A stretch of 64,000 nucleotides of DNA from a virus, in UHGV virus genome UHGV-0098755; one strand, written 5' to 3'. This document shows, in pieces, positions 7,374 through 44,163 of the stretch. The notes beneath the pieces were generated by a model. That model was given only the letters and a program-made list of their open reading frames with translations, was not told the origin of the DNA and did no database searches. A program made the translations under genes and the position numbers. Within the stretch, counting starts at the first letter, position 1; each line of letters opens with the position of its first letter.

Positions 7374-7398
7374 ATTTTACCAAAAATTTATAAAGCAA
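7374..7398 (-). promoter_or_regulatory. MotA-type middle promoter upstream of a-gt
   Basis: TTGCTTTA box, 11 nt spacer, TAAAAT. Confidence 0.45.
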
Positions 7399-28167: not shown

Positions 28168-28749
28168 CTAACCAAGCTTTTTAGTTAATTCATTCCAATG
28201 TTTTCTACACAAAGAAACATAAATTTCATCACCAATACAGATTTGATTACCTTCTTTAACTGGTGTTCCATCTTCCATTAATCGAGCTGTCATAATCGCT
28301 TTTTTACCGCAATGACAAACTGCCTTTAGTTCAATAAGTTTATCTGCAATCGCCAAAAGTTCTTTAGAACCTTCAAACAATTTTCCAGCGAAATCAGTCC
28401 TTAATCCATAAGCCATAACAGGAACATTATATGTATCAACAATTCGACTCAATTGATGCACTTGTTCAGTTTTTAAAAACTGGGCTTCATCTACAAATAC
28501 GCAATGAATATCTTTTTGTGCTTCAGCCCATTTATAGAACTCGAAAATATCCATATCATCTGTAATAATATTTGCTTCCTGCCTAATTCCAATGCGAGAA
28601 ACGACTTCACAGACAGAATCGCGAGTATCAATAGCAGGCTTAAGAACTAATACACTCATTCCACGTTCTTTATAATTATGTGCAGCAGTCAAAAGAGAAG
28701 CAGATTTTCCAGCATTCATTGCTGCATAAGTAAAAATTAAACTCGCCAT
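28168..28749 (-). CDS. tk: thymidine kinase
   Basis: 193 aa; P-loop AAMNAGKS, Cys zinc motifs; matches recalled T4 Tk. Confidence 0.9.
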   Translation of the reverse strand: MASLIFTYAAMNAGKSASLLTAAHNYKERGMSVLVLKPAIDTRDSVCEVVSRIGIRQEANIITDDMDIFEFYKWAEAQKDIHCVFVDEAQFLKTEQVHQLSRIVDTYNVPVMAYGLRTDFAGKLFEGSKELLAIADKLIELKAVCHCGKKAIMTARLMEDGTPVKEGNQICIGDEIYVSLCRKHWNELTKKLG

Positions 28750-29142: not shown

Positions 29143-29345
29143 TATTCTTCTACGTGCTGTTTACGACCTTTCTTATCAATAAAGGTGTATTCAACGAATG
29201 TTCCAATGTAGTCTTTATCGACATCATGTGGACTATTAATTGGACATTTAGTACGGCAAATGCGTTCCCATTGACGAATAATTACTGCCTTATTCTTTGG
29301 GTCATACGGATGTGGATAATGTATATTCATAATAATGGTTCCCAA
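29118..29345 (-). CDS. hypothetical protein
   Basis: 75 aa. Confidence 0.4.
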   Translation of the reverse strand: MGTIIMNIHYPHPYDPKNKAVIIRQWERICRTKCPINSPHDVDKDYIGTFVEYTFIDKKGRKQHVEEYCLKVTWL

Positions 29346-29794
29346 TCAACAATCACAATTTCTAATTTAGAGGAATATGTATCTAAAATCCCCTCAATAA
29401 TATCCCAGTTCCCTTTACCTATGCCTGCACCAATCCTAGGCATATAGATTGTAGGTTTAATCAGTTTATTTTCACCAAACTCATTTAATTCTAACATACA
29501 ATTCATTAAAGCGGAATATTCAAAATTTGGCCCTGGTTGAAATTGAGTATAAAGATTAAAGCAGTAAGCTTTATGAGTCCTAAAGTATTTTTCATAGACT
29601 GAGTAAGAACCAAGTTTAGTTACATCACCCCATTCAGTCTGTAATTTATCAGCTTCCAAAATTTTAGGGAAAGCTTTGGTTAATTGACCTGCGACTCCAG
29701 CTTTCATCGTATGAAAACAATTGCATCCATGCGCAATATTTTTACCTTCAGTGAAAAGGGCGACAATATCGCCCTTGATATATTTTATAATCAT
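29327..29794 (-). CDS. macro-domain protein, TARG1/OARD1-like (putative ADP-ribose hydrolase)
   Basis: 155 aa; KGDIVALF...AHGCNCFHTMKAGVAGQL and MPRIGAGIGKGNW resemble the TARG1 blocks (HCIS..MGAGIA and MPRIGCGLDRLQW). Confidence 0.6.
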   Translation of the reverse strand: MIIKYIKGDIVALFTEGKNIAHGCNCFHTMKAGVAGQLTKAFPKILEADKLQTEWGDVTKLGSYSVYEKYFRTHKAYCFNLYTQFQPGPNFEYSALMNCMLELNEFGENKLIKPTIYMPRIGAGIGKGNWDIIEGILDTYSSKLEIVIVDWEPLL

Positions 29795-30138
29795 TTAGTA
29801 CTCAATCCTCGATTATAAGAATCTACCAAACGGTCAACCATTGAATGACAAGCGGCTTTATCTTTCTCCTCCGCAACTGAACATTCTAAGGTATTCCACT
29901 TTTTAGCATATCGTTTTAATAATGTATCGTTTTTGTATCTGCTTGATTTATCTCTTTCTCCGTCTTTATATGCATATATTAATTTCTGCGCAAATTCAGC
30001 TTGGCATGCTTTATTTTTCCCACAATAATCTGCCGCAGTGCGATTTACATATTCTCTAATTTCAGTATATGATGTATCTGCTGACGCAGAAGCAGAAAAT
30101 GAAATTAATCCTATACATAAAACCAAAATTTTAGTCAT
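29791..30138 (-). CDS. secreted small protein (signal peptide), T4 vs position
   Basis: 115 aa; N-terminal signal peptide MTKILVLCIGLISFSASASA; Cys-containing. Confidence 0.45.
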   Translation of the reverse strand: MTKILVLCIGLISFSASASADTSYTEIREYVNRTAADYCGKNKACQAEFAQKLIYAYKDGERDKSSRYKNDTLLKRYAKKWNTLECSVAEEKDKAACHSMVDRLVDSYNRGLSTK

Positions 30139-30676
30139 TTACTATTTCCAAAAGTTTATTATTTTTAAGGTAATTAGCCTTTTCTAGGACTTCAGAAGCA
30201 TATTTAGAACCAGCTTTAACATTCCATCCCGAATTATAAGAGGATATTGCTTTTCTTATATCGCCCTTATGTATATTTAACCAATAAGAAAGTTCAATGT
30301 ACGCCCAGGAAGCTGAATTGGATCGTTTATTCAACATTCTTTTTATTTCAGCATCGGTCATATTATAACCAAGTTCCTTAACTCTCGCTCGCATAGTAGG
30401 CAAATAATTTTGGAACATTCCGTAGGCGTGATGCTTTGGTTTAGATTTTAAATTAACTCCGCCAGAGCTTTCTTGCCATAAAATAGCAGCCATTATATGA
30501 CCTAATCCGCTCTTGTGGATATTTTTGTGTGTTTTATATTTTCCATCCTTAGAAAACTGTTCCCCGAATTGATACGCGTAACGCATGTTATCGAGTTGGA
30601 CATTACTGAAAGTATGCTCGGAGCTATGTGCCATCATAGAAATGGCCAATAGACCAGCGAGTAGTGCTTTTCTCAT
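30131..30676 (-). CDS. lytic transglycosylase-like protein with signal peptide
   Basis: 181 aa; signal peptide; SLT-like motifs QESSGG, GMFQ, SYNSG. Confidence 0.55.
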   Translation of the reverse strand: MRKALLAGLLAISMMAHSSEHTFSNVQLDNMRYAYQFGEQFSKDGKYKTHKNIHKSGLGHIMAAILWQESSGGVNLKSKPKHHAYGMFQNYLPTMRARVKELGYNMTDAEIKRMLNKRSNSASWAYIELSYWLNIHKGDIRKAISSYNSGWNVKAGSKYASEVLEKANYLKNNKLLEIVND

Positions 30677-30683
30677 GCTTACC

Positions 30684-31145
30684 TCATTGAGTTTTAATTA
30701 CTGCTTTAGAAGCCTTTCCTGGTAAACGACGACTGTTGATAATTGCCATCCTACATTGAAGTGACGGGTCTTTGAACTTCGCGTTAGGTTTACAAACTGT
30801 AAATCCAAGCCAAAGATTTCCATCTGTGATTTCTAAACGTCCAGGACGATATTCAACCCCATCAATAAAATCCTCGTCAATGTCAGGACGCGGAGGCATA
30901 CTAAGGAATTCATTAACTTCTAAAACATGGTCTTTTATTTTATGGAATAATTCAAAAACATATGTCTCGTCAATCTCCCGTTGAATTGCACGATCAAGAA
31001 GATGCTGAGAATATTTTAGATGAAACGATGAGACCCCTGCTGCTTTTGATGCCTCACGAATCTCATTGTTAATTTGACGAAACTCCGACTCAAAGTGACG
31101 ACGAAGCTTATTTCGACGGATAAAAACTTCTGTATTGATAGTCAT
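30684..31145 (-). CDS. regB: endoribonuclease RegB
   Basis: 153 aa, matches recalled T4 RegB. Confidence 0.8.
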   Translation of the reverse strand: MTINTEVFIRRNKLRRHFESEFRQINNEIREASKAAGVSSFHLKYSQHLLDRAIQREIDETYVFELFHKIKDHVLEVNEFLSMPPRPDIDEDFIDGVEYRPGRLEITDGNLWLGFTVCKPNAKFKDPSLQCRMAIINSRRLPGKASKAVIKTQ

Positions 31146-31170: not shown

Positions 31171-31204
31171 AAATTATACCACAGTCAAGAGGAAAAGTAA
31201 ACAG
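31171..31204 (-). promoter_or_regulatory. T4 early-type promoter upstream of regB
   Basis: TGTTTACT ... TGGTATAATTTT. Confidence 0.5.
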
Positions 31205-31749: not shown

Positions 31750-31963
31750 ATTTGACTTCCTCACCAGTACATAAATCGTATTCAACTAAACGAATAGGTT
31801 CATGAATGCCATATCCTTGAACAGAAATTTCTGTCGTAGGATAAATTCCATTAATATCACCCATGTTCCATGCTTCGTTAAATTGCTGTTCGCCTGAATT
31901 ACTAAACCATTCGGCGAAAGCATTTAGCACATCTTCAGAACCTTCAATAATTATCTTTGCCAT
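31742..31963 (-). CDS. hypothetical protein
   Basis: 73 aa. Confidence 0.4.
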   Translation of the reverse strand: MAKIIIEGSEDVLNAFAEWFSNSGEQQFNEAWNMGDINGIYPTTEISVQGYGIHEPIRLVEYDLCTGEEVKYD

Positions 31964-32325
31964 TACAAACTCTCGGTAAAGGTACGAGCGATAACGTCGC
32001 GCTGCTGTTCCGGAGTCAGAGAGTTAAAGCGAACTGCATAACCGGATACACGGATGGTCAGCTGCGGATATTTTTCCGGATGCTTAACTGCATCTTCCAG
32101 AGTTTCGCGACGCAGAACGTTAACGTTCAGGTGTTGACCACCTTCAATTTTAACTGTAGGTTGTGTTTCAATTTCAATTTCACGGGCATGCAAACCATAG
32201 AAAATTTCTGGGTCTACAAAAGAGTCCTCTTTAAAGGTTTTAGAAACGATAATTCGTGCTTGAATACCATCTTCAAAATAAATAGTACCTTTATGTGTGC
32301 CTTCAAGAATTTGATATGCTTTCAT
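31963..32325 (-). CDS. autonomous glycyl-radical cofactor (GrcA/YfiD-like)
   Basis: 120 aa; C-terminal [28 protein letters not shown] glycyl-radical motif. Confidence 0.8.
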
Positions 32326-34445: not shown

Positions 34446-35686
<1,241 letters not shown>

Positions 35687-35705
<19 letters not shown>

Positions 35706-39587: not shown

Positions 39588-39663
39588 TGGTCGAGGCAGT
39601 AGGGATCGAACCTACGACCCAGGACTTAGAAGGTCCTTGCTCTTCCTTCTGAGCTATGCCTCG
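39588..39663 (-). tRNA. tRNA-Arg (anticodon UCU)
   Basis: Cloverleaf folded by hand: perfect acceptor stem, T-arm GGTTCGATCC, anticodon loop CUUCUAA, CCA encoded. Confidence 0.8.
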
Positions 39664-39667
39664 TATT

Positions 39668-39742
39668 TGGCGGACGTGATAGGATTCGAACCTATAACCA
39701 ATCGCTTAACAGGCGATCGCTCTGCCATTGAGCTACACATCC
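39668..39742 (-). tRNA. tRNA-Asn (anticodon GUU)
   Basis: Hand-folded; D-arm GCTC/GAGC, anticodon stem ATCGC/GCGAT, loop CUGUUAA, T-arm TTCGAAT, CCA encoded. Confidence 0.75.
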
Positions 39743-39746
39743 AAAT

Positions 39747-39833
39747 TGGTGGGGAGTGATGGAGTCGAACCACCCGAGTCGCAATGACAATGGATTTACA
39801 GTCCACACCGCTACCTCTACGGGATAACTCCCC
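39747..39833 (-). tRNA. tRNA-Tyr (anticodon GUA), long variable arm
   Basis: Hand-folded 87 nt; anticodon loop CUGUAAA; long extra arm; T-arm GGTTCGACTCC. Confidence 0.7.
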
Positions 39834-39842
39834 AAATTAATT

Positions 39843-39917
39843 TGGTGGCCCTGGGTGGAATTGAACCACCATCTGGCGATTATGAGTCGCTTGCTTGAAC
39901 CTTCCAGCTACAGGGCC
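39843..39917 (-). tRNA. tRNA with anticodon CAU (Ile2/Met type; T4 tRNA-Ile equivalent)
   Basis: Hand-folded; anticodon loop CUCAUAA; T-arm GGTGGTTCAATTCCACC. Confidence 0.7.
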
Positions 39918-39918
39918 T

Positions 39919-39994
39919 TGGTGCTGATTGACGGAATCGAACCGCCGACCTTCTCATTACAAGTGAGTTGCTCTACCTACTGAGCTAAATCAGC
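39919..39994 (-). tRNA. tRNA-Thr (anticodon UGU)
   Basis: Hand-folded; anticodon loop CUUGUAA; D-arm GCTC/GAGC. Confidence 0.8.
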
Positions 39995-39999
39995 AAAAC

Positions 40000-40089
40000 T
40001 GGCGGAGGCGATAGGATTTGAACCTATGAGTCGCCGGAGCGACTGCCGGTTTTCAAGACCGGTGCATTAAACCACTCTGCCACGCCTCC
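40000..40089 (-). tRNA. tRNA-Ser (anticodon UGA), long variable arm
   Basis: Hand-folded 90 nt; anticodon loop CUUGAAA. Confidence 0.8.
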
Positions 40090-40091
40090 AG

Positions 40092-40165
40092 TCTCCATAC
40101 AAGGATTTGAACCTTGGACCTCCTGATCCCAAATCAGGCGCTCTACCAAACTGAGCTACACGGAG
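40092..40165 (-). tRNA. tRNA-Pro (anticodon UGG), CCA not encoded
   Basis: Hand-folded; anticodon loop UUUGGGA; T-arm AAGGTTCAAATCCTT. Confidence 0.75.
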
Positions 40166-40175
40166 TAAATTAAAT

Positions 40176-40249
<74 letters not shown>

Positions 40250-40254
40250 AAATT

Positions 40255-40341
40255 TGGTGCGAGAAGTGGGACTCGAACCCACAAGGAAATCATTCCGCAG
40301 CATTTTAAGTGCTGTGCCTTTACCAATTTGACCATTCTCGC
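40255..40341 (-). tRNA. tRNA-Leu (anticodon UAA), long variable arm
   Basis: Hand-folded 87 nt; anticodon loop CUUAAAA. Confidence 0.8.
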
Positions 40342-40342
40342 G

Positions 40343-40415
40343 CTGGGAATAAAGGACTCGAACCTTTGCATCTAGCAGTCAAAGTGCTATGCCTTACCAA
40401 CTTGGCTAATTCCCA
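40343..40415 (-). tRNA. tRNA-Gln (anticodon UUG), CCA not encoded
   Basis: Hand-folded; anticodon loop CUUUGAC; abuts tRNA-Leu 5' end. Confidence 0.75.
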
Positions 40416-40575
40416 ATTATTAACAAAGGCTCTTAAGCAAGAACCCTTGATGATAGAGGGTATTAATCAGTGCGATATGAGTTAATAATAACAAATAATT
40501 CTTAAAGCAAATTAAACATTTTAACGGTCGGCAAAACAATTTCTTCTTCTATATAAGAGTATTTAACACTCTCAA

Positions 40576-44114: not shown

Positions 44115-44163
44115 ATGTTTCTCCTCAAATTTAGTTAAGATTATAACACATGAAACTGAAGCA

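What the first reader, a model, noticed from the sequence alone, without database searches (positions are those of the whole stretch)
29327..29794. TARG1/OARD1-like macrodomain among early genes
The protein shows the KGD...HCxxxxxxMxAGxA and MPRIG[AC]G motifs typical of TARG1-type macrodomains, which remove ADP-ribose from proteins and from DNA (the DarG antitoxin is of this type). A phage-encoded copy could reverse host ADP-ribosylation-based immunity such as DarT, or regulate the phage's own ADP-ribosyltransferases.
Basis: partly seen in the sequence, partly recalled or inferred. Interest (0 to 1): 0.5.

Follow-up and report, generated by a model that had tools for sequence, protein, structure and literature searches.

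The report
T4 tk.4/AdfM anti-DarT2 macrodomain

Summary

In a T4 transposon screen tk.4 was the only hit against DarTG2, a clean knockout sensitised T4, and the gene was named adfM (bioRxiv 10.1101/2025.11.20.689424).

One correction is needed. The TARG1 Lys84/Asp125 pair and the DarG Lys80 are absent. An invariant Gln84 (76/76 relatives) and Gly126 occupy those positions. This does not refute hydrolase activity. SCO6735 also has Gln there, cleaves thymidine-ADP-ribose on DNA efficiently, and is inactivated by Q85A.

So this is an ALC1/TARG1-class, Gln-type, phage-borne macrodomain. It is not a TARG1 or DarG family member in the strict sense, and it is only distantly related to the Lys-type PhiKZ "AdfM". 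Hydrolysis by Tk.4 itself has not been shown biochemically. Verdict: already known, low interest.

The parts
29327..29794 (-). tk.4 / adfM coding sequence, a 155-aa stand-alone macrodomain
   Evidence: ORF. It is 97% identical to T4 GT7 Tk.4. Pfam Macro. AF2 pLDDT 95.8. Fold matches.
29768..29776 (-). K7-G8-D9 motif at the end of strand beta1. G8 is kept in 73/76 relatives; position 9 is D in 54 and N in 22.
   Evidence: It aligns with TARG1 V-K-G-D.
29690..29731 (-). H22-G-C-N25-C...M30-K31-A-G33-V-A35: the conserved H-x-C-N motif plus the phosphate-binding loop. N25 aligns with DarG N22 and PhiKZ AdfM N23. K31 is a variant: T4 and 63/76 relatives have Gly here.
   Evidence: DarG N22A, K29E and PhiKZ N23A mutants lose activity.
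29648..29650 (-). Asp49, invariant in 76/76 relatives and shared with Poa1p. It is Tyr in SCO6735, Bt_1257, DarG and PhiKZ gp104. Its role is unknown.
29543..29551 (-). Y82-T83-Q84, invariant in 76/76. Gln84 occupies the position of catalytic TARG1 Lys84, DarG Lys80 and SCO6735 Gln85.
   Evidence: hhalign. Conservation. MAFFT. SCO6735 Q85A is inactive.
29405..29443 (-). M118-P-R-I-G-A-G-I-G126-K127-G-N-W130, the substrate-binding (distal ribose/diphosphate) loop. Gly126 sits where TARG1 has Asp125.
29791..29794 (-). ATGA overlap: the tk.4 start codon overlaps the vs stop codon (translational coupling).
29327..29330 (-). ATGA overlap: the tk.4 stop codon overlaps the tk.3 start codon.
31173..31201 (-). 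Candidate sigma-70-type promoter (TTTACT-17-TG-TATAAT) upstream of regB. It could drive the regB…tk run. This is a consensus match only.

Best explanation
The gene is the orthologue of phage T4 tk.4, recently renamed adfM (anti-DarT factor, macrodomain). It is made before replication as part of the regB-vs-tk operon-like run. The 155-aa protein is a single macrodomain of the ALC1/TARG1/DarG class. When the host DarT2 toxin attaches ADP-ribose to thymidines in single-stranded phage DNA (TNTC motifs), the protein binds the ADP-ribose in the cleft formed by the H22-x-C-N25 / M30-x-x-G33 phosphate loop and the P119-x-I-G-x-G-x-x-G-x-W130 loop. It then cleaves the ribose-thymine N-glycosidic bond, releasing free ADP-ribose and restoring replicable DNA. 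Catalysis is not lysine-based as in TARG1 and DarG. The invariant Gln84 most likely positions the distal ribose and a water molecule, as proposed for SCO6735.

Shown: identity with tk.4, the fold, the residue equivalences, and (in T4, by others) the genetic requirement against DarTG2.

Inferred: that protection is enzymatic, that the substrate is T-ADPr DNA, and that Gln84 plays the SCO6735-like role.
For: - Orthology: 97.4% aa identity to T4 Tk.4, same gene order.
- Profile comparison with the DarG/TARG1/PhiKZ-AdfM set: 99.3% probability, E 8e-21. With the SCO6735/Bt_1257/ALC1 set: 98.8%, E 8.5e-17, with Q84 aligned to SCO6735 Q85.
- Genetics in T4: tk.4 was the only significant hit in the DarTG2 screen, and a clean knockout is sensitised (bioRxiv 10.1101/2025.11.20.689424).
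- Precedent for a Gln-type enzyme: SCO6735 removes T-ADPr from DNA faster than DarG or TARG1 and rescues DarT toxicity, and Q85A abolishes its activity (PMC9411070).
- A different phage macrodomain, PhiKZ gp104, has direct biochemical proof of T-ADPr removal (PMC13309987).
- Q84, T83, Y82, G33, A35, P119 and G124 are invariant in 76 relatives down to 34% identity. Gln is also kept in Felixounavirus, Pakpunavirus, cyanophage, Kuttervirus and Streptomyces-phage relatives.
Against: - No biochemical assay of Tk.4 itself was found in the literature searched. The T4 preprint only infers enzymatic removal.
- The catalytic Lys of DarG and TARG1, whose mutation kills those enzymes, is missing.
- Tk.4 also lacks the 5-residue-longer 'mobile loop' that the SCO6735 authors link to high DNA activity.
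- By sequence its closest characterised relative is Poa1p, an ADP-ribose-1''-phosphate phosphatase.
- The window protein differs from the T4 protein tested at 4 residues, including G31K in the phosphate loop.
- The genetic evidence comes from a single preprint.
Confidence: 0.75

Rival explanations
1. Its main job is on small ADP-ribose metabolites rather than DNA. Candidate activities are a Poa1p-like ADP-ribose-1''-phosphate phosphatase or an O-acetyl-ADP-ribose deacetylase. These could clean up by-products of RNA repair, or destroy ADP-ribose-derived immune signals or toxins.
For: Poa1p is among the best sequence and structure matches. Tk.4 shares the Poa1p H-x-C-N-C motif, the Poa1p His23 and Ser30 positions (H22, T29) and the Asp49 equivalent. 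The long-standing annotation is 'A1pp phosphatase' or 'phosphatase'. In related phage contigs the gene lies beside RNA ligase 1 and polynucleotide kinase. [quoted passage not shown]
Against: The only phenotype reported for tk.4 is specific loss of fitness on DarTG2, a DNA-modifying system. No KptA/Tpt1-type source of Appr1p was seen near the gene. The Gln-type relative SCO6735 prefers DNA-ADPr. This activity could coexist with DNA de-ADP-ribosylation without being the selected function.
Confidence: 0.1
2. It protects without catalysis, either by binding and inhibiting DarT2 directly or by shielding ADP-ribosylated DNA (an antitoxin mimic acting by interaction).
For: The canonical catalytic Lys is absent. 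Catalytically dead SCO6735 Q85A still inhibits DarT in vitro, more strongly than dead DarG or TARG1. Full-length DarG also inhibits DarT by binding.
Against: All ADP-ribose-contacting motifs and Gln84 are invariant across very diverse phages whose hosts carry different DarT proteins. That pattern is expected for an enzyme acting on a common chemical bond, not for a binder of one toxin. Tk.4 lacks the DarG C-terminal DarT-binding domain (155 aa, single domain). The isolated DarG macrodomain K80A does not inhibit DarT.
Confidence: 0.08
3. It acts on ADP-ribosylated proteins or RNA. It might tune or reverse marks made by the phage's own Alt/ModA/ModB transferases, or reverse host RNA or protein ADP-ribosylation.
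For: TARG1 and SCO6735 also remove Glu/Asp-linked protein ADPr and uracil-ADPr on RNA. T4-like phages do encode ADP-ribosyltransferases.
Against: Alt, ModA and ModB modify arginine, a linkage that ALC1-class macrodomains are not known to cleave. tk.4 is not next to those genes. Close relatives occur in many phage groups, including Felixounavirus, Pakpunavirus, Kuttervirus and cyanophages; I did not check those genomes for Alt/Mod homologues. The T4 screen gave no phenotype for tk.4 without DarTG2.
Confidence: 0.05

Closest known systems
T4 Tk.4 = AdfM (anti-DarT factor, macrodomain), bioRxiv 10.1101/2025.11.20.689424
   Same: 97% identical over all 155 residues. Same position between vs and tk.3. 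Same motifs, including Q84 and K127.
   Different: Four substitutions: I3V, T15A, K31G and A32S (window versus T4). The window allele has Lys instead of Gly at the first position of the phosphate loop. This allele is common in Tequatrovirus.
SCO6735 (Streptomyces coelicolor, PDB 5E3B) and Bt_1257 (PDB 2FG1/2AFC): Gln-type ALC1-like macrodomains
   Different: Only 21-29% identity. The loop after the Gln is 5 residues shorter in Tk.4. Tk.4 has invariant Asp49 where these proteins have Tyr. Tk.4 is phage-borne rather than chromosomal and DNA-damage-inducible.
DarG antitoxin macrodomain (T. aquaticus 5M31/5M3E, M. tuberculosis 5M3I) and PhiKZ gp104 'AdfM' (PMC13309987)
   Different: These are Lys-type (F-P-T-K). 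Tk.4 has Y-T-Q. DarG carries a C-terminal DarT-binding domain and sits next to darT. The NCBIfam DarG score is 25 bits against a cut-off of 250. BLASTP of Tk.4 against PhiKZ gp104 aligns only 23 residues (E 0.017).
Human TARG1/OARD1 (PDB 4J5Q-S)
   Same: Best Foldseek hit (3e-10). Same size and single-domain architecture. Shares the K-G-D, M-x-A-G-x-A and M-P-R-I-G-x-G motifs.
   Different: Catalytic Lys84 is replaced by Gln84 and Asp125 by Gly126. About 20% identity.
Yeast Poa1p (PDB 6LFQ-U), ADP-ribose-1''-phosphate phosphatase
   Different: Poa1p has Ser, not Gln, after the conserved Thr, and a different second loop (N-S-G-I-F-G). It acts on a small metabolite.

Membership tests
Macrodomain superfamily (Pfam PF01661) | Sequence match above the curated threshold | tested here: met
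   25 bits against a cut-off of 22, E 1.9e-5, covering 112 of 118 profile positions.
Macrodomain superfamily (Pfam PF01661) | Three-layer alpha/beta/alpha macro fold | tested here: met
ALC1-like (TARG1/DarG/SCO6735) class of macrodomains | Closest structural neighbours are members of this class, separated from MacroD, PARG and viral classes | tested here: met
TARG1/OARD1 family in the strict sense | Catalytic Lys84 | tested here: not met
   Profile alignment puts Gln84 at this position; it is invariant in 76/76 relatives.
TARG1/OARD1 family in the strict sense | Catalytic Asp125 | tested here: not met
   Gly126 aligns with Asp125. Relatives have Ala or Gly there.
DarG antitoxin (NCBIfam NF048014) | Catalytic Lys80 in an F-P-T-K motif | tested here: not met
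   Tk.4 has Y-T-Q in place of P-T-K.
DarG antitoxin (NCBIfam NF048014) | Two-domain protein with a C-terminal DarT-binding domain, scoring above the equivalog cut-off | tested here: not met
   The protein is 155 aa and matches profile positions 1-146 of 338 only. Score is 25 bits against a cut-off of 250.
DarG antitoxin (NCBIfam NF048014) | Encoded next to a darT toxin gene | tested here: not met
   The neighbours are vs, vs.1, regB and tk.1-3. Related contigs show phage genes only.
SCO6735/Bt_1257 subclass (Gln-type) | Gln at the position of the TARG1/DarG catalytic Lys | tested here: met
   Q84 aligns with SCO6735 Q85 (hhalign 98.8%).
SCO6735/Bt_1257 subclass (Gln-type) | Extended 'mobile loop', about 5 residues longer than in TARG1 and DarG | tested here: not met
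   Tk.4 has 9 residues from Q84 to the conserved Tyr, against 14 in SCO6735.
SCO6735/Bt_1257 subclass (Gln-type) | Hydrolysis of thymidine-linked ADP-ribose on ssDNA | not testable with these tools
   Needs an enzyme assay. Only the genetic link to DarTG2 exists for T4 Tk.4.
T4 Tk.4/AdfM orthologue group | High identity over the full length and conserved position between vs and tk.3 | tested here: met
   97.4% identity over 155/155 residues. Synteny.
T4 Tk.4/AdfM orthologue group | Required for growth on DarTG2-carrying hosts | not testable with these tools
   Shown for T4 in the preprint, not for this phage or for the K31 allele.
Poa1p-type ADP-ribose-1''-phosphate phosphatase | His23 and Ser30 positions. 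These are the residues mutated in PDB 6LFS and 6LFT; their catalytic role is my recollection of the Poa1p structure paper, which I did not read here. | tested here: inconclusive
   H22 (71/76) and T29 (52/76) align to them. The rest of the Poa1p pocket differs, and no activity data exist.

The most novel reading that the evidence does not exclude
The Tk.4 family may be a third, essentially phage-specific subgroup of ALC1-class macrodomains. Its features are Gln at the catalytic site, an invariant Asp49 and a short mobile loop. On this reading it removes base-linked ADP-ribose by a lysine-independent, water- or substrate-assisted mechanism. 'AdfM' activity would then have been recruited at least twice independently by phages: a Gln-type in T4-like and many other myoviruses, and a Lys-type DarG-like form in chimalliviruses. 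Its substrate range might extend to uracil-ADPr on RNA. Neither AdfM paper appears to discuss this in the passages I read (I did not read either in full).
Probability: 0.45. Interest if true: 0.35.

Novelty: already known. Interest (0 to 1): 0.22.

Why it matters
DarTG systems stop phages by ADP-ribosylating their DNA. Knowing which phage genes undo this explains host range and helps in choosing or engineering therapeutic phages. For this locus the answer is already published: tk.4 = adfM.

What remains open is mechanistic. The T4-type protein lacks the lysine that DarG and TARG1 need, so it is a natural test case for lysine-independent cleavage of the thymine-ribose bond. Relatives occur in about 2,700 of 50,700 deposited phage genomes, so the chemistry is widely used.

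Tried and rejected
- Bacterial origin or DarT linkage. Homologues labelled as bacterial MAG proteins (P0064, P0095) turned out to lie on T4-like phage contigs with Rnl1, PNKP, a Dda-like helicase and dCMP deaminase. There was no DarT neighbour.
- Foreign acquisition. GC content across the gene (33-35%) matches its surroundings.
- A middle (MotA-type) promoter for tk.4. The pattern is enriched in the window (27 matches against 7.6 expected), but none lies on the minus strand between 26.8 and 39.4 kb. Transcription is therefore more likely read-through from sigma-70-type sites upstream of regB.
- An apparent ART-macrodomain pair in Streptomyces phage Francob. The gene annotated 'ADP-ribosyltransferase' is itself the macrodomain, so it does not support pairing with a transferase.
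- Literature. The T4 genome review (PMC150520) is not held. A search for tk.4 together with regB and 'early' found nothing. Searches for biochemical work on Tk.4 also found nothing.
- Model coordinates cannot be exported. I therefore could not measure where Asp49, Lys31 and Lys127 sit relative to the ADP-ribose pocket.

Full report
**What the window is.** A 5-kb stretch around the finding is 98-99% identical to many Tequatrovirus (T4-like) coliphage genomes. Their annotation gives the local minus-strand order regB, vs.1, vs, tk.4, tk.3, tk.2, tk.1, tk. The ORF list shows the same genes here: tk at 28168-28749, the finding at 29327-29794, vs at 29791-30138, an SLT-domain vs.1 at 30131-30676 and regB at 30684-31145.

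**Checking the observation.** The ORF is real and lies at the stated coordinates: 155 aa, from ATG at 29794 to the stop at 29327 on the minus strand. ATGA overlaps couple it to vs upstream and tk.3 downstream. The quoted motifs are there: KGD (residues 7-9), HGCNCFHTMKAGVA (22-35) and MPRIGAG (118-124).

The domain call is not a chance match:
- Pfam Macro is above its gathering score (25 bits against 22, E 1.9e-5).
- PHROG 335 matches at 6.8e-65.
- The PADLOC and NCBIfam DarG profiles match the N-terminal macrodomain part weakly.
- PDB sequences of Bt_1257, Poa1p, TARG1, SCO6735 and DarG are all hit.

**Fold.** I predicted the structure from an alignment of 76 relatives with 34-86% identity. 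AlphaFold2 gave pLDDT 95.8 and pTM 0.91.

**What is already known.** The T4 record calls the orthologue "Tk.4; contains A1pp phosphatase motif", and a 2006 comparative paper noted the same domain (PMC1524935).

A November 2025 preprint (bioRxiv 10.1101/2025.11.20.689424) screened a T4 transposon library on cells expressing DarTG2:
- It confirmed that a clean knockout becomes sensitive to DarTG2.
- It noted the structural similarity to M. tuberculosis DarG.
- It named the gene adfM.
- It said only that enzymatic removal of ADP-ribose from DNA "seems likely".

A 2026 Cell Reports paper (PMC13309987) independently used the name AdfM for PhiKZ gp104. It showed in vitro that this protein removes DarT2-made ADP-ribose from a TNTC oligonucleotide.

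The window protein is 97.4% identical to T4 Tk.4.

**The catalytic residues.** I verified my recalled TARG1 sequence against PDB 2LGR/2L8R. I took the DarG, PhiKZ gp104, Bt_1257, SCO6735 and ALC1 sequences from PDB alignments and from the paper.

Profile-profile comparison of the Tk.4 family with the Lys-type set (three DarG macrodomains, PhiKZ gp104, TARG1) gives 99.3% probability (E 8e-21). It aligns Tk.4 N-L-Y-T-Q with DarG N-F-P-T-K. Gln84 therefore sits where DarG Lys80 and TARG1 Lys84 sit, and Gly126 sits where TARG1 Asp125 sits.

Gln84, Thr83 and Tyr82 are invariant in all 76 relatives. Gln is also present in more distant phage homologues from Felixounavirus, Pakpunavirus, a cyanophage, Kuttervirus and a Streptomyces phage.

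But the criterion is not sound:
- S. coelicolor SCO6735 lacks both residues and has Gln85 at that position.
- It removes thymidine-linked ADP-ribose from DNA faster than DarG or TARG1 and rescues E. coli from DarT.
- It is inactivated by Q85A.
- Its authors propose that Gln85 positions the distal ribose while a water molecule held by a backbone carbonyl starts the reaction (PMC9411070).

Comparison with the Gln-type set (SCO6735, Bt_1257, ALC1 macrodomain) gives 98.8% probability and aligns Q84 with Q85. The H-x-C-N motif and the PRIGxGxxGGxW loop are shared as well.

**How the Tk.4 family differs from SCO6735.**
- It lacks the five-residue extension of the "mobile loop".
- It has an invariant Asp49, shared only with Poa1p, where SCO6735, Bt_1257, DarG and PhiKZ gp104 have Tyr.
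- Sampled members are on phage DNA. Two homologues labelled as bacterial MAG proteins sit on T4-like phage contigs.

Tk.4 and PhiKZ gp104, which share the name AdfM, are barely alignable by BLASTP (23 residues, E 0.017). They differ in the catalytic residue, so they represent different lineages of the class.

**Allelic detail.** The window protein differs from T4 GT7 Tk.4 at four positions: I3V, T15A, K31G and A32S. Lys31 replaces the first glycine of the phosphate-binding loop, which is Gly in 63 of 76 relatives. The Lys allele is nevertheless common among Tequatrovirus sequences, including a cluster of 122 members. Lys also recurs at that position in unrelated members, so it is evidently tolerated. 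Whether it changes activity is unknown.

**Mechanism and rivals.**

Best-supported model (about 0.75): an early-made, stand-alone, Gln-type macrodomain that hydrolyses the ribose-thymine bond of DarT2-modified single-stranded phage DNA.
- Shown: orthology, fold, residue equivalence, and the T4 knockout phenotype.
- Inferred: that protection is catalytic and follows the SCO6735 scheme.

Rivals:
- Small-molecule processing of the Poa1p type. This is supported by sequence neighbours and by RNA-repair gene neighbours in some phages. It does not explain the DarTG2-specific phenotype.
- Non-catalytic inhibition of DarT2. This has a precedent in dead SCO6735. It fits poorly with strict conservation of pocket residues across phages of very different hosts.
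- Action on protein or RNA ADP-ribosylation, including the phage's own Alt/ModA/ModB marks. Those are arginine-linked, and no data support this role.

**Verdict.** The gene and its anti-DarTG2 role are already published, so novelty is "already known" and interest is low. The open points are the lack of direct biochemistry for Tk.4 and the roles of Gln84 and Asp49.

Noticed in passing
window 39588-40415 (-): A cluster of 10 tRNA genes: Arg, Asn, Tyr, Met/Ile(cat), Thr, Ser, Pro, Gly, Leu and Gln. T4 itself is usually credited with 8 (my recollection), so Asn and Tyr would be extra here.
   Followed up: no
window 35250-35705 (-): A NUDIX-domain ORF directly upstream of the lysozyme gene (34724-35212). 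It corresponds by position to T4 e.1/nudE.1, which is reported to hydrolyse ADP-ribose (Xu et al. 2002, cited in PMC1524935). It could dispose of the ADP-ribose released by Tk.4.
   Followed up: no
window 29756-29776: A perfect GC-rich inverted repeat lies inside codons 7-13 of tk.4: an 8-bp stem in the consensus scan and 9 pairs in the RNA fold. The 96-nt mRNA segment folds with z = -2.4 relative to shuffles. The scan flagged it as terminator-like only on the non-coding strand. It may be chance or a translational element.
   Followed up: partly
window, whole (e.g. 2785-2810, 7374-7397, 40485-40509, 44138-44163, all minus strand): MotA-box-like middle-promoter patterns (TGCTTNA…TANNNT) are enriched: 27 found against 7.6 expected, mostly on the minus strand. 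None lies on the minus strand between 26.8 and 39.4 kb.
   Followed up: partly
window 29702-29704 (codon 31 of tk.4): A Gly/Lys polymorphism in the phosphate-binding loop among Tequatrovirus Tk.4 alleles. It is K in this phage and in a 122-member cluster, and G in T4 GT7 and most relatives.
   Followed up: partly
L006 575-2980 (Pseudomonas phage vB_PaeM_C2-10_Ab1): The Tk.4-type macrodomain lies just downstream of a nicotinamide phosphoribosyltransferase gene and a ribose-phosphate pyrophosphokinase gene. This suggests a link to phage NAD+ salvage in that lineage.
   Followed up: no
L009 2501-2989 (Streptomyces phage Francob gene 167): The gene is annotated 'ADP-ribosyltransferase' but aligns as a SCO6735-type macrodomain (HVCND, GGWG, A-Q-H, long loop). 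This looks like a likely misannotation.
   Followed up: partly
L003 and L004 (GCA_051648945.1, GCA_051660865.1): Contigs binned as Bacilli and Culicoidibacterales MAGs carry T4-like phage genes (Rnl1, PNKP, Dda-like helicase, dCMP deaminase, spanin). They are probably phage contigs mis-binned into bacterial MAGs.
   Followed up: no
window 31963-32325 (-): A small glycyl-radical-domain ORF (GrcA/vs.6-like autonomous glycyl radical cofactor) lies upstream of regB.
   Followed up: no
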